44,710 bases of DNA. Source: Escherichia phage vB-Eco-KMB36. Below the pieces are notes generated by a model that ran no database searches, was not told where the DNA came from, and saw only the letters and a program-made list of their open reading frames with translations. Below, in pieces: positions 2,784 through 43,004 of this stretch. Both the position numbers and the translations under genes were made by a program. Positions within the stretch are counted from its first letter, which is position 1, and each line of letters opens with the position of its first letter. The DNA is taken from sequence record OR525703.1. The stretch is one strand, 5' to 3'.

Positions 2784-4754
2784 ATGCTATTAACTTTAGC
2801 GCCACAGGGTTCATCTATGAGCTTACTTACATCTCTAATCAGCCACCAGATATGGCTGCAACGCACTGCATCCGGTGAGGTGAAAGACCTCGCGCCGTTC
2901 ATTAAGGAGATGCGGGACGAAATAAAACGGCAGGTGCTGTTATTCGGCGACGACGGGCGAAGCACCGCGCGACTGAATAAACTGTTACGCGACCTTGAAG
3001 AAGCACTTACCGCGCTTACCGGTGACTGGCGGACAAAGCTGACGGAAGACCTTAAGGAGCTTGCAGCGTATGAGGCTGAGTGGAATGTGAAGACACTCAC
3101 GGCTAACGTTAATGCGGAATTTGTTACCCCGACCGCTGAACAGGTGTGGTCCGCCGCCGAGTTTCAGCCATTATCATTAAGCGACAAGCCAGTTGACTTC
3201 ACTAAGCTGATGTCGGGCTGGGGGGAAACAGAAGTCGCGCGCCTTGTAACAGGCGTTAAGATGGGCTTTGTACAAGGCCAGACAACACGGCAGATTGTTA
3301 AGAATGTTGTTGGTGCTGGTGGTTTGGCGGACATTTCAGAACGTAACGCGGCTACTGTAATCCGCACCGCGCTGTCTCATGTATCCAACGAGGCCCGTAA
3401 CGAGACGTACCGCCAGAACGACGACATCATCGAGAAGTACGAGTGGGTGTCGACGCTGGACAGCCGTACCAGTACAACGTGTTTCACGGCTGAAACAGAA
3501 TTAGCGCCCATCGCGGGGATGGACGCGGTAATGCGCGGACTCTATTCAGGAAAAATCCTTACCATCGAACTTTCCAACGGCGAGAAGTTCAGTGGCACCC
3601 CGAAACACCCTGTACTCACGCAATACGGATGGACTCCGCTTGATGAACTCGACCCAACTAAGCATGTCTTGTATACCACTGTTGACAAAGTGACTGTGCT
3701 CGAAACAGTGAAGAACATAAACATGCCAGCCAGAGCGGATTATATTTTTAATACGCTCGCTGATTTCCCCATCAGGAAAATGGTAAGCACGAGTCCCGCG
3801 GCAACAGATTTCTATGGCGATGGAGTGGGACTCAATGGCAAAATCGACATTGTACGGGCCGATTGCAAACTGCGGAACTACGTCCACGCCAGCGGAATTA
3901 AACAATTCAAAAGCGAGGGTTTCAGTCTTATTCATAGCGCCGCTTTGCTGTCGGACGATAGCTCTGGCGATTTTCTCCTCCGGGGTGAATGTCCTGTGAG
4001 TGTGCCCGCGCTTAGCGAGGCCAAGTGTTTTGACCATAGAATAGAAAACTGTTTTGCTTACTTGGGTCCTTCTTATGCACTCAATAGGCGGGACGCCGGA
4101 CTCGAACAATTCTATAGCCCTTTTTTGATTCAAAATGGTGTCGTTAGAAACCCAACCACGGGGTCGATCATGCATGAGTCCGAGCTTCTTGAGAAATGTT
4201 GTTACCGTGGTGGTAGTGACGCCGTAATTCTTGGCTATGATGCTGGCGGGAGTGCCATCTCGGTACAAAGAACAAATATCATCCGCATAAGCGTCGAGTT
4301 TAGAACGTGCCATGTTTATACCCTCTCTAGTAGTCAAGGATATTATACAGCAGGTAGTGCGATAGTCAAGAATTGCAGGGCCAGAGACGGAATGACGTGG
4401 GAAATCGGTAAAGGACCGATGCCCCCGGCCCATTTTGGGTGCAGAAGTACTACCGCACCAGTAATCAGTTCCGAGTTCGACTTCCTCGATAAAGGCGCGA
4501 AACGCGCAGCTAAGGGCGCAGAAGGTGGTACCCAGGTAAGCGCAGACACCACCTATTACGAGTTCCTTAAACAACAACCGGCATGGTTTCAGGATGAAGC
4601 ATTAGGGCCGGTTCGCGGTAAGATTTTCCGTAACAGCGGTATATCGCCGGAAGAGTTTCGCGTAATATCTGTAGATGGTTTCGGGAATCCGCTGACGCTT
4701 AAGCAGATGGCGGAACTCGATAAACGTGTTGCTGATTATCTGAAAGAGGATTAA
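2784..4754 (+). CDS. head morphogenesis protein (SPP1 gp7 / Mu F-like) containing an in-frame intein
   Basis: Extein motifs DSRTSTT...CRARDGMTWEIGKGPMPPAHFGCRS match the Mu F/gp7 signature once residues 233-530 are removed; alternative start ATG 2817. Confidence 0.7.
   Translation: MLLTLAPQGSSMSLLTSLISHQIWLQRTASGEVKDLAPFIKEMRDEIKRQVLLFGDDGRSTARLNKLLRDLEEALTALTGDWRTKLTEDLKELAAYEAEWNVKTLTANVNAEFVTPTAEQVWSAAEFQPLSLSDKPVDFTKLMSGWGETEVARLVTGVKMGFVQGQTTRQIVKNVVGAGGLADISERNAATVIRTALSHVSNEARNETYRQNDDIIEKYEWVSTLDSRTSTTCFTAETELAPIAGMDAVMRGLYSGKILTIELSNGEKFSGTPKHPVLTQYGWTPLDELDPTKHVLYTTVDKVTVLETVKNINMPARADYIFNTLADFPIRKMVSTSPAATDFYGDGVGLNGKIDIVRADCKLRNYVHASGIKQFKSEGFSLIHSAALLSDDSSGDFLLRGECPVSVPALSEAKCFDHRIENCFAYLGPSYALNRRDAGLEQFYSPFLIQNGVVRNPTTGSIMHESELLEKCCYRGGSDAVILGYDAGGSAISVQRTNIIRISVEFRTCHVYTLSSSQGYYTAGSAIVKNCRARDGMTWEIGKGPMPPAHFGCRSTTAPVISSEFDFLDKGAKRAAKGAEGGTQVSADTTYYEFLKQQPAWFQDEALGPVRGKIFRNSGISPEEFRVISVDGFGNPLTLKQMAELDKRVADYLKED
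3480..4373 (+). mobile_element. intein (Hint domain, about 298 aa) in head morphogenesis protein
   Basis: Starts CFTAETEL, block B GTPKHPVLTQYGW, C-terminal VYTLSSSQGYYTAGSAIVKN followed by Cys+1; penultimate Lys instead of His. Confidence 0.6.
3546..4313 (-). CDS. putative homing endonuclease (tandem HTH + Vsr/DUF559-like nuclease) encoded antisense inside the intein
   Basis: 256-aa ORF from ATG at 4313 with upstream GAGAGGG; HTH-like TPASIIAKNYGVTTTTVTTFLKK and VSKTVFYSMVKTLGL; nuclease-like PYNVDFAIESHSIAIEI and ERIKNIIRSGWHVYVL; lies entirely within intein 3480..4373. Confidence 0.45.
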   Translation of the reverse strand: MARSKLDAYADDICSLYRDGTPASIIAKNYGVTTTTVTTFLKKLGLMHDRPRGWVSNDTILNQKRAIELFESGVPPIECIRRTQVSKTVFYSMVKTLGLAKRGHTHRTFTPEEKIARAIVRQQSGAMNKTETLAFELFNSAGVDVVPQFAIGPYNVDFAIESHSIAIEICCRGTRAYHFPDGEISERIKNIIRSGWHVYVLHCFEHSHFVNSGIQDMLSWVEFIKRSPSVLREYRVFRGATELLAVGKFDGKDFS

Positions 4755-6136: not shown

Positions 6137-6838
6137 ATGAATCGTTTTTTACGCTATCCGTTCCAGGAAGAAGCTGGGGCTGAAGATAAATCTGGTGGCG
6201 GTGACGCGCCGAAAATGTTCACAGCCGAAGAAGTTCAGGCGCTGATTGAGAAAGAAGTTGCCGGACTTAAGGCTAACCAGGAAGCATTGCTGGCAGAGAA
6301 GAAAGAAGCCGCTCGCAAAGCAAAAGAGGCTGAAGAAGAACGGCAGCGCGCACACCAGGAGGCGTTAAAAGCCGCCGGTAAGATGGACGAGTTCGAAAAG
6401 ACTATTCGTAGCCAGTATGACCCGGTGTTAGCCGAGAAAGATGGTCGCATCTCCAAAATGGCGGAGCGCATCCTCGGCAGCGAACGTAAGGCAGTGTTAG
6501 GCTCTTTCGCGGGTGACTTTATTACCCCGGAAGCAGTAGACATTCTTGCACCGTTCGTTAAGACTGAGTTCGAAGGCGATGACGTGGTTACTAAGTTTGT
6601 CGGTGCAGATGGCAACGTAATCACGACTGACCCGGAACAGTTCCGCAAATACCTGCGCGAACACAAAGCGTTTTCGCATTTGATTAAAGCAAATGCAGCT
6701 TCCGGCGGCGGGGCTTCCGGTGGCAAAGGCGGCGGGGCCGCACCAGCGTTTAAAGACATGAGTGAAGCGGAGCGTTTAGCTCTGTATAAATCGAACCCTG
6801 CCGAATTTGAACGGCAACTTAAAGCCCTGAGGAAATAA
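6137..6838 (+). CDS. scaffolding protein
   Basis: Charged coiled-coil-rich ORF immediately upstream of major capsid gene; ATG 6137 preferred over TTG 6083. Confidence 0.55.
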   Translation: MNRFLRYPFQEEAGAEDKSGGGDAPKMFTAEEVQALIEKEVAGLKANQEALLAEKKEAARKAKEAEEERQRAHQEALKAAGKMDEFEKTIRSQYDPVLAEKDGRISKMAERILGSERKAVLGSFAGDFITPEAVDILAPFVKTEFEGDDVVTKFVGADGNVITTDPEQFRKYLREHKAFSHLIKANAASGGGASGGKGGGAAPAFKDMSEAERLALYKSNPAEFERQLKALRK

Positions 6839-6840
6839 TA

Positions 6841-7890
6841 ATGGCAATTACCACTATCGGCGATATCGTAACTGGCAACATCCCGGTCCTGGCGTCTTAT
6901 ATGACAGAGGACCCGGTAGAAAAAACCGCGTTCTTCCAGTCCGGTATTCTGACCCCGACTCCGTACGCCGCAGAGATTGCTCGCGGTTCGTCCAACGTCG
7001 CCAACATTCCTTTCTGGAAAGCGATCGATACCTCTATCGAGCCGAACTACTCGAACGATGTGTATCAGGACATCGCTACCCCGCGTAATGTGCAGACTGG
7101 TGAGATGATGGCGCGCGTTGCGTACCTGAACGAAGGTTTCGGTCAGGCGGACCTGACCGTTGAACTCACCAGCCAGAATCCGCTGCAATCCGTAGCATCC
7201 CGTCTTGATAACTTCTGGCAGCGCCAGGCGCAACGCCGTCTGATCGCCACCGCGCTCGGCCTGTACAACGACAACGTAGCCGCTACCGATGCTTACCACG
7301 AGCGGAATGACATGGTAATCGACGTGTCCGCTACTCTGGGCTTCGACGCAGGTGCGTTCATCGACGCTACCCAGACTATGGGCGATGCTCTGATGGGCAA
7401 CGGTGGCGAGGTGCTGGGTGCTATCGCGATGCACAGCTTCGTTTATGCGCAGGCACGTAAGCAGCAGCTTATTGACCTCATCAAAGATGCTGACAACGAC
7501 ACCCTGTTCGCCACCTACCAGGGTTACCGCGTGATTGTTGACGACAGCATGACTGTAGTCGGTACCGGCACGAGCCGTAAGTTCATCTCCATCATCTTCG
7601 GCAACGGCGCTATCGGTTACGGAGAAGGTAACCCGACCAATCCGCTGGCATATGAGCGCGAAGAGTCTCGCGGTAACGGTGGCGGTGTAGAAACCCTGTG
7701 GACCCGTAAGACCTGGTTGCTGCACCCGCTGGGCTACAGCTTCACCAGCGCGGTAATCACTGGCAACGGTACCGAGACGGTCGCACGCTCCGCTTCCTGG
7801 CAGGACCTGGCGAACGCTTCCAACTGGAACCGTGTGGTTGACCGTAAGCATGTACCGATTGCCTTCCTGGTAACTGGTGTCGGTGCTTAA
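6841..7890 (+). CDS. major capsid protein
   Basis: 349-aa ORF downstream of scaffold and followed by strong terminator; size and position typical. Confidence 0.75.
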   Translation: MAITTIGDIVTGNIPVLASYMTEDPVEKTAFFQSGILTPTPYAAEIARGSSNVANIPFWKAIDTSIEPNYSNDVYQDIATPRNVQTGEMMARVAYLNEGFGQADLTVELTSQNPLQSVASRLDNFWQRQAQRRLIATALGLYNDNVAATDAYHERNDMVIDVSATLGFDAGAFIDATQTMGDALMGNGGEVLGAIAMHSFVYAQARKQQLIDLIKDADNDTLFATYQGYRVIVDDSMTVVGTGTSRKFISIIFGNGAIGYGEGNPTNPLAYEREESRGNGGGVETLWTRKTWLLHPLGYSFTSAVITGNGTETVARSASWQDLANASNWNRVVDRKHVPIAFLVTGVGA

Positions 7891-7905
7891 GGTTAAGATA
7901 TAATC

Positions 7906-7930
7906 GAGAGGGACTTCGGTCCCTCTTTTC
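7906..7930 (+). terminator. rho-independent terminator
   Basis: GAGAGGGAC-TTCG-GTCCCTCT hairpin followed by TTTC. Confidence 0.65.
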
Positions 7931-7949
7931 ATTTACTAAGAGGTAAATT

Positions 7950-8248
7950 ATGGCCAAGACCGGAAAAGGCTTGCCGCGCAGCCTTCAGAATGTCGATTTC
8001 GGCGACTTTGATATCCCTGTCGCACTGCTACTACCAGCGTAGTTGGTGGGGTTAAAAAGTCAGCTACTGTGGATGCACCTGCGGCCGTTACCGCAGCCGC
8101 AGGGGAGCAGTCCGCTGCTGAACCGACTAAAGCCGAGTTCAACGCGCTTGTAGCGGAGTACAACAAACTCCTAACCGATGTTACCGCGCTGCGCACTACC
8201 GTAGCGAACCTGTTAACCGCGCTTAAAAACGCAGGAACTGTAAGCTAA
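7950..8248 (+). pseudogene. small Ala-rich coiled-coil protein gene split between two frames
   Basis: ATG 7950 with AAGAGG RBS stops after 30 codons at TAG 8040..8042; protein-like coding continues in the -1 frame from 8012 to 8248 without a start codon. Confidence 0.3.
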
Positions 8249-8260
8249 AGGAGATTAAAA

Positions 8261-8608
8261 ATGGTTGATGTAATTAAACGTCGTATTACCGGTGTTTCTG
8301 ATGAAGACTCTGACGGTCAGGTTGAAATCGACATGGCAAACATCTCTCCAGCGTCTTTTTCTACCGCACTGAGCGCCACCACAGCAGTTACAGCCGGGCA
8401 GACTATGACACTGACCGTAGTTGTTACTGGTGGTCTGGAGCCGTATTCCTACCAGTGGTACAAGAACAACAACGCTATCGCCGGGGCAAACGCGGCTTCC
8501 TATGCGAAGGCGTCCACCACTACCGCCGATTCAGGTACGTATAAAGTGGTTGTTCACGACGTGTATGGTAATATTATCTCCAGCAGCACTAAAGTAACCG
8601 TGTCTTAA
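8261..8608 (+). CDS. Ig-like domain protein (possible decoration or fibre)
   Basis: 115-aa ORF with Ig-like pattern YSYQWYKNN...SGTYKVVV. Confidence 0.5.
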   Translation: MVDVIKRRITGVSDEDSDGQVEIDMANISPASFSTALSATTAVTAGQTMTLTVVVTGGLEPYSYQWYKNNNAIAGANAASYAKASTTTADSGTYKVVVHDVYGNIISSSTKVTVS

Positions 8609-14529: not shown

Positions 14530-14721
14530 TCACTTCTCTTTGACATTCGAGTTGCAAGCCCAGATTAAAATAAATACCCACGGCAGCAGAACCCAGCCAA
14601 GAAACAGATTGGCCATGAATATCGCTAATTTCGCTTTATGACCCCGCATATGGGCCACTAAAAACGGGATAAAATAAACTAAAACGATAATGATTAAGAA
14701 GAACATAGTAATACCTGTCAT
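14530..14721 (-). CDS. small membrane protein
   Basis: 63 aa with two hydrophobic helices. Confidence 0.45.
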   Translation of the reverse strand: MTGITMFFLIIIVLVYFIPFLVAHMRGHKAKLAIFMANLFLGWVLLPWVFILIWACNSNVKEK

Positions 14722-14762
14722 GGTGTAGCTCCTGTTTGAGTTAACATTGTTGGTGTAAGTGA

Positions 14763-14791
14763 ATAGTATCCTATTATGTTGGGGTGTGCAA
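14763..14791 (-). promoter_or_regulatory. sigma70-like promoter with AATAG-N4-CTATT palindrome
   Basis: Minus strand reads TTGCAC, 17 nt, TACTAT; near-identical to the plus-strand promoter at 37252..37280. Confidence 0.5.
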
Positions 14792-14898
14792 GTAATGTGT
14801 TAGAATTATTTTGCGCCTAGTGTCGCACACGAAAAGCGGGTGGTTCCCGTCTGGCGCATTTTCCTTAACCTGTAACCTCTTAACCAAAGGATTAAAGA

Positions 14899-15315
14899 AT
14901 GAAACTTTCTGATTTTTATTACGAAGCTGAGGCAGAAAAAGGCGCCCGTATGCCAATACCACTGAAAGACGGCACCGATTCAGGGGAGTGGCTGAACGTT
15001 GTTTCACCGGAGGCAGACGTTGCCGTTAAAGCTATGAGGGCGTTTACACTTGCGTACCGCGCGGCATTAGGTAAATTGAAACCGCTTCGTGATAAATGTG
15101 AGGAACTGAAAGATTTCTCGGAATACAATATTAAGATGGAAGACGCCGCGACGGACCTTAACCGCCAGTTAGCACTTGAACTGGTTAACGGTTGGAGTCT
15201 CGACGATGAATTTAATAAAGAGAACCTGAACACTCTTTTCTCACAATATAAACGCCTCGCTGAACACGTTGTTGTTTTCCACAACGAACAGCTTCACCAA
15301 TTGCAGGAAAAGTAG
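14899..15315 (+). CDS. tail assembly chaperone (G-like)
   Basis: 138-aa ORF immediately upstream of tape measure; ends GAA AAG TAG. Confidence 0.6.
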   Translation: MKLSDFYYEAEAEKGARMPIPLKDGTDSGEWLNVVSPEADVAVKAMRAFTLAYRAALGKLKPLRDKCEELKDFSEYNIKMEDAATDLNRQLALELVNGWSLDDEFNKENLNTLFSQYKRLAEHVVVFHNEQLHQLQEK

Positions 15316-15320
15316 ACGCG

Positions 15321-15680
15321 TTGCTCCAGTTTGCCCGTTGGAACTTCATAACCCGCCACAAACGGCGGGAGTTTGACAGTATTGCCGACGGGCATAAAGC
15401 TGCGCTAATTGCTATGGGGGTTATGCAAGATGCGCCGGAAGCAACGCAGGATACCGGGCCAGAATGCCCCCCTGAACTACTAACCACCTTCGAGAAGTAC
15501 AGGGAAATCAAATTCACACGCCGAGTGGATGACGACGGCATCAAGATGTACCCGCGCGAACAGTTACGATGGTCGGATTTAGTGGCGTACAGCACCGTTT
15601 CAGGCCAGAATATAGGCATGTTTGAATCCGACATCATCATGAGCTTAGACGCTATTTTCGAGGGTAGAAACGATGGCTGA
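15321..15680 (+). CDS. tail assembly chaperone GT extension (likely -1 frameshift product)
   Basis: -1 frame is open from 15264 to 15680 and overlaps tape measure start; putative slip site at GGAAAAG 15306..15312. Confidence 0.5.
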   Translation: MLQFARWNFITRHKRREFDSIADGHKAALIAMGVMQDAPEATQDTGPECPPELLTTFEKYREIKFTRRVDDDGIKMYPREQLRWSDLVAYSTVSGQNIGMFESDIIMSLDAIFEGRNDG

Positions 15681-18012
15681 TGTAGCTAGTTTGGTTGTAA
15701 AAGTATCAGAGCAAGGCGCGAAAGCTACATCAGACCGTCTTGACAACCTTTCCAAATCCGCAAAAGTGGCAGGGGCTGCCGTAGCGGGCCTCGCTTCCAT
15801 CGTCGCCGCTACCGCGTACAAGGCCGCGCAGGAACTGGTAGACTCCCAACGGCAACTGGACAAGATGTCCGCCAGCCTGAAAACATTAACCGGTAGCACG
15901 CAGGGCGCGAGACAAGCACTAAGCATACTGCAAGACTTCGCGCGCGACACTCCGTATGGTCTTGAACAGGCGGTAGAGGGATTCCGTAAACTGGTGGCAC
16001 TCGGCCTTACCCCCTCAGAAGAAGCGTTGCGCTCCTACGGAAACACCGCTGCGGCTATGGGTAAAGACCTTAATCAGATGATTGAGGCCGTTGCGGACGC
16101 CAGTACATTTGAATTTGAGCGCCTTAAAGAATTCGGCATCAAGGCCAAGCAGAACAAAGACGATGTTGAATTTACATTCCAGGGCACTACTACGGTGGTT
16201 AAGAAGAGCGCTGCCGATATCGAGCAATACCTGCTCAACATTGGTAACGTAAACTTTGCGGGGGCTATGGCGGACCAGGCTAACACGCTTAATGGGGCTA
16301 TCGCCAGTGCCAGCGATTCCTGGTCGCAGTTAAAAATGACACTGGCTACCAGCCTTGATGTTGGTGCTCTTGCGGAACCTATCCGGTACATCGATGATTT
16401 AATCCAGGAACTTAACGCACAGGTAGCATCCGGCGAACTCGCCGCTGAGATGCGTATGTGGGGTGACATCGCGTCAGAAGTGGGCCGCGCGATAGAGATG
16501 TCCTTCGACGCGGCATTTGGTTTCGTAGGCGACGCGATAAACGGGCTGAATGAACTCTGGGATTTTAGCAGTAAAAGTATCACCGATAGCGGTGAACAAA
16601 CGGCGACAACCATCGCAGAATCAGCCGCCGATGCGCTAGATTTCATCGCGGAAGAATTTACCGCGATGGAGCGTTTCTTTGAAGATATGGTTAAAGGGGC
16701 GCAGGATGCTGGCCGGTTGGTGAAAGCAGCCTTCACACCAGGTGAATCGGTAGACGTAGCAAAAAACATTAACTTCCAGCTGGGTATGGCACTGGATACT
16801 CAGCGTGATGTTGCGGACCTGACCCGTAAAAGTTTCCGCGAACAGGTGGAGGCTCAGCAAAATATCGTCGCGCTTAAACGCGCGGCATATGACATCGACA
16901 AAGAAGCCGCTAAGGCAGAAGGGCTTAGTAAATTTAAGGTAACCGGTACTGGTGGCGGGTCCGAGGATGATAGCGCGGGGGCAAAAGCCGCTAAGAAAGC
17001 CGCAGATGCGTTCGAGCGCCAGAAGAAAGCCGCTGAGGATTTCTACTACCAGTCTATTCATCTCAATGATGATGTATTCCAGAAAATAGAAGCTAATCAG
17101 GAGCAACAGTTAACCAAGCTACAAGAGTTTTACGGCAACCAGCTTCTTAGCGACCAGCAATACGAGAACGCCAAAACTCAAATTATGCTGGAAGCTGACA
17201 CCGCACGACAGGAAGAACTCGCCAAGCGAGAGAAAGAACGGCAGGAAAAGAACCAGAAAGGTGAAGACTTCATGGCCCAGATTATGGGTCAGAATGCCAC
17301 CGAGCTTGAGCTTCTCGACATCCAGGAACAGCAGAAACTGGCGGTAGCGGATAAGTACCGCGAGCAGGGTTTGATTAGCGAGAAGCAGTATCAGGCCGCG
17401 CTTAACGCCATCAACGAGCAATACGCCACCAAGCGTGCCGATGCGACGGCAACGGCCTTTGGTAACATGGCGTCAAACATCGGGTCTGCGTTGGGGGAGG
17501 CTTCCAGCGCGTACAAGGCATTCGCTATCGTACAGGCCACTATAGCCACGTACACCGCAGCTATTGAAGCGTACAAGTCAACGGCCGCTATCCCTGTTGT
17601 TGGCCCGTTCCTGGCCCCTGTAGCCGCTGCTGCTGCCGTTGGGGCGGGTATGGCGCAGGTTTCCGCTATCAGGTCCGCGCGCGAACAGGGTGGTCAGTTA
17701 TCCGCAGGGCAGGCTTCCACCATCGCTGAACGTGGTAAACCAGAAGTTATCATGCCCGCTGGCGCGTCACGTGTGCGCACAGCACAGCAAATGAAAGAAA
17801 TTATGGGGCAAAATGGGTCTTCTTCTGGCCCATCTAATGTTACCATTGTAAATAACACATCGAGTCAGATTGGCAACGTATCTACCGAGCAGGATGACGA
17901 AGGCCGTTTGCGCATCATCATAGAAGAGCAGGTGGCTGCCTCTTTGCAGAACAGCAACAGTAAGATTAGCAAGGCCCGCAAGGCCACAAGAAACGCGCCG
18001 GGGTTCAAGTAA
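15673..18012 (+). CDS. tail tape measure protein
   Basis: 779-aa Ala/Gln/Glu-rich helical protein after G/GT. Confidence 0.8.
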   Translation: MADVASLVVKVSEQGAKATSDRLDNLSKSAKVAGAAVAGLASIVAATAYKAAQELVDSQRQLDKMSASLKTLTGSTQGARQALSILQDFARDTPYGLEQAVEGFRKLVALGLTPSEEALRSYGNTAAAMGKDLNQMIEAVADASTFEFERLKEFGIKAKQNKDDVEFTFQGTTTVVKKSAADIEQYLLNIGNVNFAGAMADQANTLNGAIASASDSWSQLKMTLATSLDVGALAEPIRYIDDLIQELNAQVASGELAAEMRMWGDIASEVGRAIEMSFDAAFGFVGDAINGLNELWDFSSKSITDSGEQTATTIAESAADALDFIAEEFTAMERFFEDMVKGAQDAGRLVKAAFTPGESVDVAKNINFQLGMALDTQRDVADLTRKSFREQVEAQQNIVALKRAAYDIDKEAAKAEGLSKFKVTGTGGGSEDDSAGAKAAKKAADAFERQKKAAEDFYYQSIHLNDDVFQKIEANQEQQLTKLQEFYGNQLLSDQQYENAKTQIMLEADTARQEELAKREKERQEKNQKGEDFMAQIMGQNATELELLDIQEQQKLAVADKYREQGLISEKQYQAALNAINEQYATKRADATATAFGNMASNIGSALGEASSAYKAFAIVQATIATYTAAIEAYKSTAAIPVVGPFLAPVAAAAAVGAGMAQVSAIRSAREQGGQLSAGQASTIAERGKPEVIMPAGASRVRTAQQMKEIMGQNGSSSGPSNVTIVNNTSSQIGNVSTEQDDEGRLRIIIEEQVAASLQNSNSKISKARKATRNAPGFK

Positions 18013-41006: not shown

Positions 41007-41258
41007 TTGGATAAATTTACTGAAACAGTGACGGGGTGGCTTCTCGCTGCCGCGCTAGCCGGAGGGGTTATCGGACTACGGCAACATAAGTCTGTTATTT
41101 CTGGCCCCATCGACGGCTTCTGCTTTATCGCAACTGGCTTCACCTGCGCCGTATTCGGCGCACCTCTAGCGGCTCAATGGTTCGGCATTACCGGGGAGCG
41201 TGAAATCGCTCGGCGCACCTCTAGCGGCTCAATGGTTCGGCATTACCGGGGAGCGTGA
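41007..41258 (+). CDS. holin-like membrane protein, truncated by a 55-bp tandem duplication
   Basis: Two hydrophobic helices then frameshifted tail RRTSSGSMVRHYRGA; removing one repeat copy restores a 102-aa three-helix protein ending at 41370. Confidence 0.5.
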   Translation: MDKFTETVTGWLLAAALAGGVIGLRQHKSVISGPIDGFCFIATGFTCAVFGAPLAAQWFGITGEREIARRTSSGSMVRHYRGA

Positions 41259-41265
41259 AATCGCT
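41156..41265. repeat. perfect 55-bp tandem duplication
   Basis: CGGCGCACCTCTAGCGGCTCAATGGTTCGGCATTACCGGGGAGCGTGAAATCGCT occurs twice back to back. Confidence 0.85.
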
Positions 41266-42282: not shown

Positions 42283-42432
42283 ATGAAAATCACAGATATC
42301 GAAGCATTCAAAGACGCACAACTGATGGCACGTATCGCCGTTAGTAACCTGAGCAACAGCATTCCGGCGGATGCGTTCTGGGCTGCAGCGATGAAGGCAC
42401 TGAAAGCAGCTTATGCAGGAGAGAAGAAATGA
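42283..42432 (+). CDS. hypothetical small protein
   Basis: 49-codon ORF with GGAG RBS. Confidence 0.35.
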   Translation: MKITDIEAFKDAQLMARIAVSNLSNSIPADAFWAAAMKALKAAYAGEKK

Positions 42433-42587
42433 GCGAACAAGGTCAAGTAAGCCAACCATTACGAGTAGGCCGTAAAGTCAGTCACGCCCCGTTCCCGACA
42501 CGTGAGGAACTTATGGAACGTAACAGTTTCCCGGGGCCGGACAAGAACAAGTATCTTAATCGCATGTGGGGAGAGCGTAAAGAATGA
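42429..42587 (+). CDS. hypothetical small protein
   Basis: 52-codon ORF, coupled. Confidence 0.35.
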   Translation: MSEQGQVSQPLRVGRKVSHAPFPTREELMERNSFPGPDKNKYLNRMWGERKE

Positions 42588-42772
42588 CTGACCGCGACTA
42601 CGAAAAGATGATGGTAGAGGCCGCAAACGGCAAAACAAACGAAGCCAGAAACGAAATAGCGGTCCTCGATGCCAGGATTAAACATCACGCACAATGGGTA
42701 GATATCCTTATGGAACGCCGCCGTGAACTGATTAACCGCTTCAAACTGAACAAAGGTGATACCAATGCCTAA
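42584..42772 (+). CDS. hypothetical protein
   Basis: 62-aa ORF. Confidence 0.4.
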   Translation: MTDRDYEKMMVEAANGKTNEARNEIAVLDARIKHHAQWVDILMERRRELINRFKLNKGDTNA

Positions 42773-43004
42773 AATCACAATCGCATCGCTCGAGCGCCGT
42801 ATTATGGTGCTTGAGTCAGAGAAACAGACGCTAGGCGGGCAACTGTCAATTAACGGTGAGTTTCAACTGGAGGCATTTAAGTTGTTGCTTGATAAGTTGA
42901 AAGAGGGTGAAAAGCCTTGTGCGCATGACTACTACTTACATGTGGTTGGCGGGTTACATCGAGCCACGTGCATTAAATGTGGTGAAGCGTATGGAGTCGC
43001 CTAA
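42765..43004 (+). CDS. hypothetical protein with C-terminal Cys/His motif
   Basis: ATG 42765 preferred over GTG 42756; CAHDYYLHVVGGLHRATCIKCG. Confidence 0.4.
   Translation: MPKITIASLERRIMVLESEKQTLGGQLSINGEFQLEAFKLLLDKLKEGEKPCAHDYYLHVVGGLHRATCIKCGEAYGVA

What the first reader, a model, noticed from the sequence alone, without database searches (positions are those of the whole stretch)
7950..8248. Small post-capsid gene split between two frames
Seen in sequence: ATG 7950 (RBS AAGAGG) gives only 30 codons before TAG at 8040..8042, but a convincingly protein-like Ala-rich coiled-coil sequence (VVGGVKKSATVDAPAAVTAAAGEQSAAEPTKAEFNALVAEYNKLLTDVTALRTTVANLLTALKNAGTVS) continues in the -1 frame from 8012 to 8248 with no start codon. 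No canonical slippery heptamer is visible in the overlap, so a sequencing indel, a recent pseudogenising mutation or an unusual recoding event are all possible.
Basis: seen in the sequence. Interest (0 to 1): 0.4.

Follow-up and report, generated by a model that had tools for sequence, protein, structure and literature searches.

The report
Frameshifted head-fibre gene in a coliphage
A small, dispensable capsid "head fibre" gene of a K1G-like E. coli phage is broken by the loss of one C, which is an ordinary inactivating mutation or a base-calling error and not an unusual way of decoding the gene.

Summary
ATG 7950 (RBS AAGAGG 7938..7943) runs 30 codons to TAG 8040..8042, and the rest of a conserved protein continues in the -1 frame to TAA 8246..8248.

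The cause is a single missing C at 8025. The window reads GCACTGC where all relatives read GCACCTGC. Putting the C back gives a 300-nt, 99-aa ORF that matches PHROG 4366 "head fiber protein" over its full length (E 5e-40).

Every homologue examined has one uninterrupted ORF:
- 32 GenBank phage records that match the 71 nt around the site;
- 331 records by tblastn;
- 7 metagenome or SRA contigs, one of them 99.5% identical to the window.

The overlap has no slippery heptamer, no homopolymer and no significant RNA structure, so programmed recoding is rejected.

The gene is dispensable. The closest whole-genome relative, fPoEco01, lacks it cleanly. Other public assemblies carry independent 53-nt and about 390-nt deletions, in-frame deletions and other frameshifts in it.

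No other single-base frame break was found in about 60 conserved genes of the window. I therefore favour a real, recent loss-of-function mutation (about 0.65) over a consensus error (about 0.3). Only the reads can decide. The finding is ordinary and of low interest.

The parts
6841..7890 (+). Major capsid protein gene (349 aa), immediately upstream of the split gene
   Evidence: One search gives the ORF; related to SPP1 coat protein gp13 (PDB 4an5 and 6r3a, E about 1e-41); 96.8% identical to the fPoEco01 major capsid protein. Annotated as major capsid protein in relatives.
7906..7927 (+). Terminator-like GC hairpin followed by a T-rich tail, between the capsid gene and the head-fibre gene
   Evidence: 9-bp stem with a TTCG loop. 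It is conserved in fPoEco01. Whether it functions as a terminator was not tested.
7938..7943 (+). Shine-Dalgarno AAGAGG of the head-fibre gene, 6 nt before the ATG
   Evidence: invariant in all aligned relatives. In fPoEco01, which lacks the gene, the same RBS serves the Ig-like gene directly.
7950..8042 (+). 5' fragment of the head-fibre gene: native codons 1-25 (7950..8024), then 5 out-of-frame codons (LLLPA) and TAG
   Evidence: Residues 1-25 are identical to those of SHAK7693 and Ivi. Residues 1-24 form the module shared with a second head-fibre allele class.
8025..8025 (+). Site of the 1-nt deletion: a single C where all relatives have CC (GCA CCT became GCA C-T), at codon 26 position 1
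   Evidence: (alignment A1); all 32 GenBank phage matches span 72 nt for the 71-nt query, and the best two differ from the window only by this gap.
8027..8248 (+). 3' part of the head-fibre gene, native codons 27-99 plus TAA, now in the -1 frame. It holds an Ala/Pro-rich linker and the C-terminal coiled-coil helix.
   Evidence: the invariant residues A27 T28 G33 V35 K36 K37 ... K93 G96 are all present. One search shows the heptads, and predicts a helix at 61-95 with pLDDT above 95. There are no further stops or indels. The only other state unique to the window is G-to-A at gene nt 193 (D65N), which is tolerated in the family.
8069..8248 (+). Mechanical GTG ORF (59 aa) inside the 3' part. It is probably not translated, and any product would lack the N-terminal module.
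   Evidence: One search gives the ORF. The sequence shows no SD within 5-10 nt of the GTG.
8261..8608 (+). Ig-like (Hoc-like) head decoration gene, intact, with its own RBS AAGGAG at 8249..8254
   Evidence: phrog_4069, E 4e-56. Ig_3 and Ig_2; the exact protein is present on 12 public contigs.

Best explanation
The window is the genome of a Kagunavirus (K1G-like, Guernseyvirinae) siphophage of E. coli. Positions 7950..8248 are its head-fibre gene.

In relatives this gene is a 99-aa protein with three parts:
- a conserved N-terminal module of about 25 aa, inferred to be the capsid anchor;
- an Ala/Pro-rich linker;
- a C-terminal five-heptad coiled coil, inferred to trimerise into a short fibre on the capsid surface.

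In this genome one C of a CC dinucleotide at codon 26 is missing. Ribosomes that start at ATG 7950 therefore make a 30-aa peptide (25 native residues plus LLLPA) and stop at TAG 8040. The linker and coiled coil are not made, so the virion should lack head fibres.

I take this to be a real, recent loss-of-function mutation that is tolerated because the gene is dispensable. It is not programmed recoding.

Shown directly: the 1-nt deletion, the family membership, the intact single ORF in all homologues, the absence of recoding signals, and the natural absence or disruption of the gene in other phages. Inferred: the capsid location and trimeric state of the protein, the lack of fibres on this virion, and that the deletion is in the phage DNA rather than only in the consensus sequence.
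For: (1) A single-base gap is the only difference needed. Alignment A1 shows it, and the restored 300-nt ORF gives a 99-aa protein.

(2) Family membership: phrog_4366 'head fiber protein', positions 1-99 against 1-91 of 91, E 5.2e-40. Relatives annotate the gene as a head fiber or virion structural protein.

(3) Homologues have one ORF. 331 of 396 matching GenBank phage records cover at least 80% of the protein in one place. All 32 records matching the 71 nt around the site carry the extra base. Seven contigs with the identical Ig-like neighbour have the intact 99-aa ORF, including L015, which is 99.5% identical to the window with 6 mismatches and 1 gap.

(4) Dispensability. fPoEco01, the closest relative over the left 25 kb (92.7% identity), goes from the capsid gene straight to the Ig-like gene using the same RBS.

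(5) Independent disruptions in other assemblies, checked at the DNA level: an approximately 390-nt microhomology deletion that fuses the gene to the Ig-like gene (L017), a 53-nt deletion (L018), A5 to A6 (L019) and C5 to C4 (L020). There are also in-frame deletion variants of 55-84 aa.

(6) Base-level quality of the window is good. A tblastn of every fPoEco01 CDS against the window, plus an ORF scan against SHAK7693, found no other single-base frame break in about 60 conserved genes. A random consensus error would have had roughly a 0.7% chance of landing in this 300-nt gene.

(7) An exact 55-nt tandem duplication elsewhere in the window suggests a short-read, k=55 SPAdes-type assembly. For that chemistry a deletion in a CC dinucleotide is not a typical error.

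(8) The downstream frame shows no decay, so the event is recent.
Against: The deletion allele was found nowhere else. It is absent from IMG/VR, from 185,579 species genomes, from JGI metagenomes, from GenBank phages and from complete E. coli genomes. It therefore rests on this one consensus sequence.

A perfectly preserved downstream frame is equally what a sequencing error would give.

The assembly carries at least one probable uncurated artefact, the 55-nt duplication that breaks the holin-like gene, so it was not polished carefully. No reads are available, and the sequencing platform is only inferred.
Confidence: 0.65

Rival explanations
1. Sequencing or assembly error. The phage really has GCACCTGC and an intact 99-aa head-fibre gene, and the consensus dropped one C.
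For: The allele is unique to this sequence. The nearest public sequence, L015, differs in the gene by this gap and two substitutions only. The downstream frame is fully intact. The record shows a probable uncurated assembly artefact, the exact 55-nt duplication at 41155..41264 that frameshifts the holin-like gene.
Against: No other single-base frame break was found in about 60 conserved genes, so the base-level indel error rate is very low. The one break sits in a gene covering 0.7% of the genome that is demonstrably dispensable and is truncated in other assemblies by events that cannot be base-calling errors. CC is not a homopolymer context prone to miscalls.
Confidence: 0.3
2. Programmed or otherwise efficient recoding. 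This would be a -1 ribosomal frameshift, transcriptional slippage, or termination-reinitiation at GTG 8069, so that a functional fibre is still made from the two frames.
For: Both frames overlap by 31 nt (8012..8042), and the downstream frame is intact. A P-site tRNA-Pro on CCT (8016..8018) could in principle re-pair with CCC (8015..8017); this is read from the sequence. GTG 8069 lies 27 nt after the TAG.
Against: No X_XXY_YYZ heptamer occurs anywhere in 7950..8042, and there is no homopolymer of 4 or more in the overlap. The RNA fold of 8005..8110 is no better than shuffled sequence (z = -0.63). The two-frame layout is not conserved in any homologue, which is the hallmark expected of programmed frameshifts. 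GTG 8069 lacks an SD, and its product would lack the conserved N-terminal module.
Confidence: 0.03
3. The 30-aa peptide is itself the selected product: a minimal capsid-binding plug that keeps the conserved N-terminal module while discarding the fibre.
For: The truncation retains residues 1-25, almost exactly the module (residues 1-24) shared between the two head-fibre allele classes. All roughly 25 truncated or fused variants in public data also keep at least 33 N-terminal residues.
Against: fPoEco01 lacks the whole gene, N-terminus included. The retained N-termini are explained more simply by mutational targets (A5 and C5 runs, GC-rich Ala repeats) that lie downstream of codon 33. There is a search bias as well, since fragments with only the C-terminus need a called start. 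A monomeric 25-aa anchor without the oligomerising helix would probably bind weakly (inference).
Confidence: 0.02

Closest known systems
PHROG 4366 'head fiber protein' of Guernseyvirinae (K1G ORF9 / YP_009168790, SETP3-like 'virion structural protein', Jerseyvirus 94-aa homologues)
   Same: Same locus, between the major capsid gene and the Ig-like decoration gene, with the same RBS. Identity is 98% to the nearest proteins once the C is restored, and the HMM match is full length.
   Different: Here the ORF is interrupted at codon 26 by a 1-nt deletion. No other member examined has this break.
phi29 head fibre gp8.5 (Pfam PF11133 Phage_head_fibr)
   Same: A dispensable fibre on the capsid surface with an N-terminal capsid-binding part and a helical oligomerising part (my own knowledge of phi29). 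There is a faint match of residues 75-98 to the C-terminal 24 positions of the Pfam model, and three shortened homologues carry a precomputed PF11133 hit.
   Different: The score of 15.3 bits is below the 24.6-bit cutoff. The protein has 99 aa against about 280 and shows no helix-turn-helix supercoil repeat. Membership is not supported; the relation is functional analogy only.
SPP1 gp12, an auxiliary trimeric decoration protein on a gp13 capsid
   Same: The capsid protein here is a clear homologue of SPP1 gp13. Like gp12, this is a small, non-essential, probably trimeric capsid accessory protein (gp12 properties are from my own knowledge).
   Different: No sequence similarity was found in the PDB. 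There are no collagen-like G-X-Y repeats; a coiled coil is present instead. The gene lies after, not before, the capsid gene.
Programmed -1 frameshifts in phage structural genes (for example the tail assembly chaperone G/GT, annotated in fPoEco01 at 15176..15957)
   Same: Two overlapping frames within a structural-gene cluster.
   Different: There is no slippery site, no conservation of the two-frame layout and no stimulatory structure. The genuine chaperone frameshift lies elsewhere in these genomes.

Membership tests
PHROG 4366 head fiber protein (Guernseyvirinae small head fibre) | Full-length match to the family profile | tested here: met
   the restored 99-aa sequence matches 1-99 against 1-91 of 91, E 5.2e-40, 136.7 bits. 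The window needs the missing C put back for this.
PHROG 4366 head fiber protein (Guernseyvirinae small head fibre) | Conserved position between the major capsid gene and the Ig-like decoration gene | tested here: met
   the same order, with a 99-aa ORF, in SHAK7693, Ivi, K1G, Bas72 and 7 metagenome or SRA contigs.
PHROG 4366 head fiber protein (Guernseyvirinae small head fibre) | One uninterrupted ORF of about 94-99 aa | tested here: not met
   the ORF is split at codon 26 by a 1-nt deletion, so this copy is a frameshifted (pseudo)gene of the family.
PHROG 4366 head fiber protein (Guernseyvirinae small head fibre) | Physical presence as a fibre on the capsid | not testable with these tools
   There are only annotations ('virion structural protein', 'head fiber') and no solved structure. 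Literature searches found nothing specific.
phi29-type head fibre (Pfam PF11133) | Score above the Pfam gathering threshold | tested here: not met
   15.3 bits against a cutoff of 24.6, and only the last 24 model positions align.
Programmed -1 ribosomal frameshift site | Slippery heptamer X_XXY_YYZ in the zero frame within the overlap | tested here: not met
   none in 7950..8042.
Programmed -1 ribosomal frameshift site | Downstream stimulatory RNA structure | tested here: not met
   MFE -37.1 against a shuffle mean of -34.9, z = -0.63, with 53 of 200 shuffles folding at least as well.
Programmed -1 ribosomal frameshift site | Two-frame architecture conserved in homologues | tested here: not met
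   all homologues examined have a single frame.
Transcriptional slippage site | Homopolymer run (typically 6 or more A or T) at the frame junction | tested here: not met
   the runs of 4 or more in the gene are at 7964, 8048, 8054, 8102 and 8225. None lies in 8012..8042.
T4 fibritin / neck whiskers (an annotation used in some relatives) | Match to fibritin family models | tested here: not met
   no fibritin family among the Pfam hits at E up to 0.1. The label in records such as NTEC3 and GZMU_E2010 probably reflects generic coiled-coil similarity.

The most novel reading that the evidence does not exclude
The head-fibre gene of K1G/Jersey-like phages may be a recurrent target of loss. Public assemblies hold many independent truncations, in-frame deletions, fusions to the neighbouring Ig-like gene, whole-gene absence and a second allele class that shares only the 24-aa N-terminal module. 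This window would be one more case. Such a pattern could reflect positive selection to shed or swap the fibre, for example during laboratory propagation, for adhesion to a different surface, or to escape a host defence that senses this protein. The alternative is mere relaxed constraint.
Probability: 0.12. Interest if true: 0.4.

Novelty: already known. Interest (0 to 1): 0.1.

Why it matters
The main value is for annotation. The two fragments should be annotated as one frameshifted head-fibre gene (a pseudogene, or "sequence to be verified"). They should not be annotated as a 30-aa gene plus an orphan ORF, and not as a recoding site.

If the mutation is real, this isolate is a natural head-fibre-null Kagunavirus. 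It could be compared with fibre-bearing relatives such as Ivi or SHAK7693 to find out what the fibre does (particle stability, adsorption, retention on surfaces).

The broader pattern of repeated loss of this gene is mildly interesting for capsid-decoration biology, but it would not surprise a specialist.

Tried and rejected
- **Searches for the deletion allele:** exact-pattern searches in IMG/VR, in the GTDB species genomes and in JGI metagenomes found nothing. BLAST of the 71-nt junction against GenBank phages found only the undeleted form, and there was no match at all in complete E. coli genomes.
- **Exact-product look-ups:** neither the 30-aa peptide nor the window's capsid protein is on record, so the source contig and its reads could not be traced.
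- **Solved structures:** a PDB sequence search with the restored protein gave no hit at E up to 1.
- **Literature:** searches on head fibres and Kagunavirus, Jerseyvirus or Guernseyvirinae capsids gave nothing specific to this protein.
- **Control for the "hot spot" idea:** I ran the same homologue search with an essential 119-aa neck protein. Only the best 120 of 299 clusters are listed; 114 of those are exactly 119 aa. Truncated forms would rank lower and were not shown, so the comparison is inconclusive.
- **Structure prediction input:** The 98%-identical P0001 was used instead.
- **Antisense ORF 7948..8196 (82 aa):** rejected as a gene. The same antisense frame is open in all relatives as a by-product of Ala/Thr/Val-rich coding, and variation follows the sense frame.
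- **Apparent internal stops in the Imm-like gene:** these come from an over-extended annotation in fPoEco01. The 63-aa gene is intact.

Full report
**What is in the sequence.** The window is a complete genome of about 44.7 kb. It is colinear with K1G-like coliphages (Kagunavirus, Guernseyvirinae) and starts at the large terminase gene. Its best whole-genome matches are about 88-93% identical. The finding lies in the head-gene block, whose order is scaffold (6137..6838), major capsid protein (6841..7890), a terminator-like hairpin (7906..7927), the gene in question, and an Ig-like Hoc-like decoration gene (8261..8608).

AAGAGG (7938..7943) precedes ATG 7950, 30 codons follow, and TAG lies at 8040..8042. 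The -1 frame is open from 8012 to TAA 8246..8248. A mechanical GTG start exists at 8069 (59 aa) but has no usable Shine-Dalgarno sequence.

**Cause of the split.** In SHAK7693, Ivi, K1G and Bas72 the same position holds a single 300-nt ORF, annotated "virion structural protein" or "head fiber protein". The DNA alignment shows exactly one gap. The relatives read GTCGCACCTGCT and the window reads GTCGCA-CTGCT, so one C of a CC dinucleotide is missing at window position 8025, which is codon 26 position 1.

Re-inserting it gives MAKTGKGLPRSLQNVDFGDFDIPVAPATTSVVGGVKK...LKNAGTVS, 99 aa. Native codons 27-99 are read exactly by the -1-frame codons from 8027.

In the 71 nt around the site, all 32 GenBank phage matches span 72 nt, and the best two differ from the window only by the gap. 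Seven public contigs encode an Ig-like neighbour identical to the window's, and all of them have the intact 99-aa ORF. One of them, L015, is 99.5% identical to the window over 1453 nt, with 6 mismatches and this 1 gap. The deletion allele itself was found in no collection.

**What the gene is.** The restored protein matches PHROG 4366 "head fiber protein" end to end (E 5e-40). Pfam gives nothing above threshold, only a faint hit to the C-terminal tip of the phi29 head-fibre model (15.3 bits against a cutoff of 24.6). No solved structure is related.

The family alignment is conserved along its whole length. Among 11 intact relatives, 36 of 54 variable sites are at codon position 3, so this is a real, constrained coding gene. 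AlphaFold2 on the 98%-identical P0001 gives a low-confidence N-terminal 60 residues and one helix at 61-95 with pLDDT of 96-98. That helix has a clean a/d heptad pattern, with F, Y, V, V, L at position a and L, L, L, L, A at position d.

A second allele class at the same locus, about 123 aa in for example vB_SenS-Ent3 and fFiEco02, shares only the first 24 residues or so. I therefore infer a modular design: an N-terminal capsid anchor, a flexible Ala/Pro linker and an oligomerising coiled coil.

The capsid protein is a homologue of SPP1 gp13. From my own knowledge, the SPP1 capsid carries a small, dispensable, trimeric accessory protein, gp12. That is an analogy and not homology.

**Is it recoding?** No. 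There is no X_XXY_YYZ heptamer anywhere in the 5' ORF and no homopolymer of 4 or more in the 8012..8042 overlap. The local RNA fold is no better than shuffled sequence (z = -0.63). Most importantly, none of the homologues has the two-frame layout. The genuine programmed frameshifts of these phages are annotated elsewhere, in the tail assembly chaperone and a tail protein.

**Real mutation or sequence error?** This cannot be settled without the reads, but several results bear on it.

- **The gene is dispensable.** fPoEco01, the closest relative over the left 25 kb, goes from the capsid-gene hairpin and the same TAAGAGG RBS directly into the Ig-like gene. Only 47 of the 86 Escherichia-phage records that match the capsid region also match this protein.
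- **Other assemblies carry independent lesions in the gene.** Of 107 homologue clusters, roughly 25 are truncated, internally deleted or fused forms. Four were checked at the DNA level:
  - an approximately 390-nt deletion between GTAGTTG microhomologies that fuses the N-terminus to the Ig-like protein (L017);
  - a 53-nt deletion (L018);
  - A5 to A6 (L019);
  - C5 to C4 (L020).

  The large deletions cannot be base-calling errors, so loss of function here is tolerated in nature or in culture.
- **The rest of the window is clean.** Testing every fPoEco01 CDS, and all SHAK7693 ORFs of at least 60 aa, against the window found no other single-base frame break in about 60 conserved genes. The non-multiple-of-3 gaps from blastn are compensating pairs in divergent stretches or lie between genes. 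A lone random error would have about a 0.7% chance of landing in this gene.
- **The sequencing platform can be guessed.** An exact 55-nt tandem duplication at 41155..41209 | 41210..41264 looks like an untrimmed k=55 contig-end overlap left inside the sequence after the genome was rotated to start at the terminase. That implies a short-read, SPAdes-type assembly, for which a CC-to-C miscall is atypical. It also shows the sequence was not carefully curated.

On the other side, the allele is unique, and the downstream frame shows no decay. Its only other unique state is D65N, which occurs elsewhere in the family. An error predicts exactly this pattern.

I put a real, recent loss-of-function mutation at about 0.65, a consensus error at about 0.3, and everything else at about 0.05.

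**Consequence.** If the mutation is real, translation yields a 30-aa peptide (25 native residues plus LLLPA) without the linker or coiled coil, so the virion should lack fibres. The Ig-like gene downstream has its own RBS (AAGGAG, 8249..8254) and should be unaffected. Reinitiation at GTG 8069 is conceivable, but it would give a coiled coil with no anchor.

**Verdict.** This is a frameshifted copy of a known, dispensable head-fibre gene. It is ordinary and of low interest. The only mildly interesting thread is the repeated loss and modular replacement of this gene across the phage group, which I could not quantify properly because the control search listing was truncated.

Noticed in passing
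window 41155..41264 (holin-like gene, TTG 41007): An exact 55-nt tandem duplication (41155..41209 | 41210..41264) that relatives lack. It frameshifts the class II holin-like gene: 41007..41258 is followed by a continuation in another frame to 41370. Since 55 is a default SPAdes k-mer, this is probably an untrimmed circular-contig overlap left inside after the genome was rotated to start at the terminase. The junction was not found in IMG/VR.
   Followed up: partly
L017 (SRR34061210), L018 (SRR24751126), L019 (ERR9295296), L020 (DRR174610); proteins P0066-P0107: The head-fibre gene is disrupted independently in many public assemblies. The lesions include an approximately 390-nt microhomology deletion fusing it to the Ig-like gene, a 53-nt deletion, A5-to-A6 and C5-to-C4 frameshifts, and in-frame deletions leaving 55-84 aa. 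All of these variants keep at least 33 N-terminal residues.
   Followed up: partly
L005 (fPoEco01, NC_073317.1) 8271..8333: The closest relative over the left 25 kb lacks the head-fibre gene cleanly. The hairpin and TAAGAGG RBS that precede the gene elsewhere directly serve the Ig-like decoration gene.
   Followed up: yes
window 7950..8021; P0100-P0107; fFiEco02 NC_073316.1 8331..8402: The head-fibre locus is modular. A second allele class of about 123 aa shares only the first 24 residues or so (MAKTGKGLPRSLQNVDFGDFDI) and then has an unrelated fibre sequence. This suggests a conserved capsid anchor with exchangeable distal parts.
   Followed up: partly
window 2784..4754 (insert about 3483..4373): The head-morphogenesis (Mu F-like) gene is 656 aa here against 347 aa in fPoEco01, because of an in-frame insert of about 890 nt. 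There is a weak, sub-threshold Intein_splicing hit, and a relative (fEg-Eco06) is annotated 'minor head protein with inserted intein'.
   Followed up: partly
window 7906..7927: A strong GC hairpin (9-bp stem, TTCG loop) with a T-rich tail lies right after the major capsid gene and is conserved in fPoEco01. It may be a leaky terminator that lowers expression of the decoration genes relative to the capsid protein.
   Followed up: no
window 6235..7932, minus strand: A 565-aa antisense ORF spans the scaffold and capsid genes. It is probably a by-product of codon composition and was not examined further.
   Followed up: no
L006 (SHAK7693, OR594180.1) 42419..42953: In this relative the endolysin is annotated as two overlapping CDS (42419..42658 and 42651..42953), which indicates a frameshift in that record. 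The record's taxonomy line (Autographiviridae; Kayfunavirus) is also inconsistent with its K1G-like gene content.
   Followed up: no
window 14530..14862, minus strand; L005 14806..15135: The superinfection-immunity-like gene is 63 aa in the window. The 109-aa annotation in fPoEco01 is an upstream-extended ORF that is closed by stops in the window, so the difference comes from annotation and is not a lesion.
   Followed up: yes
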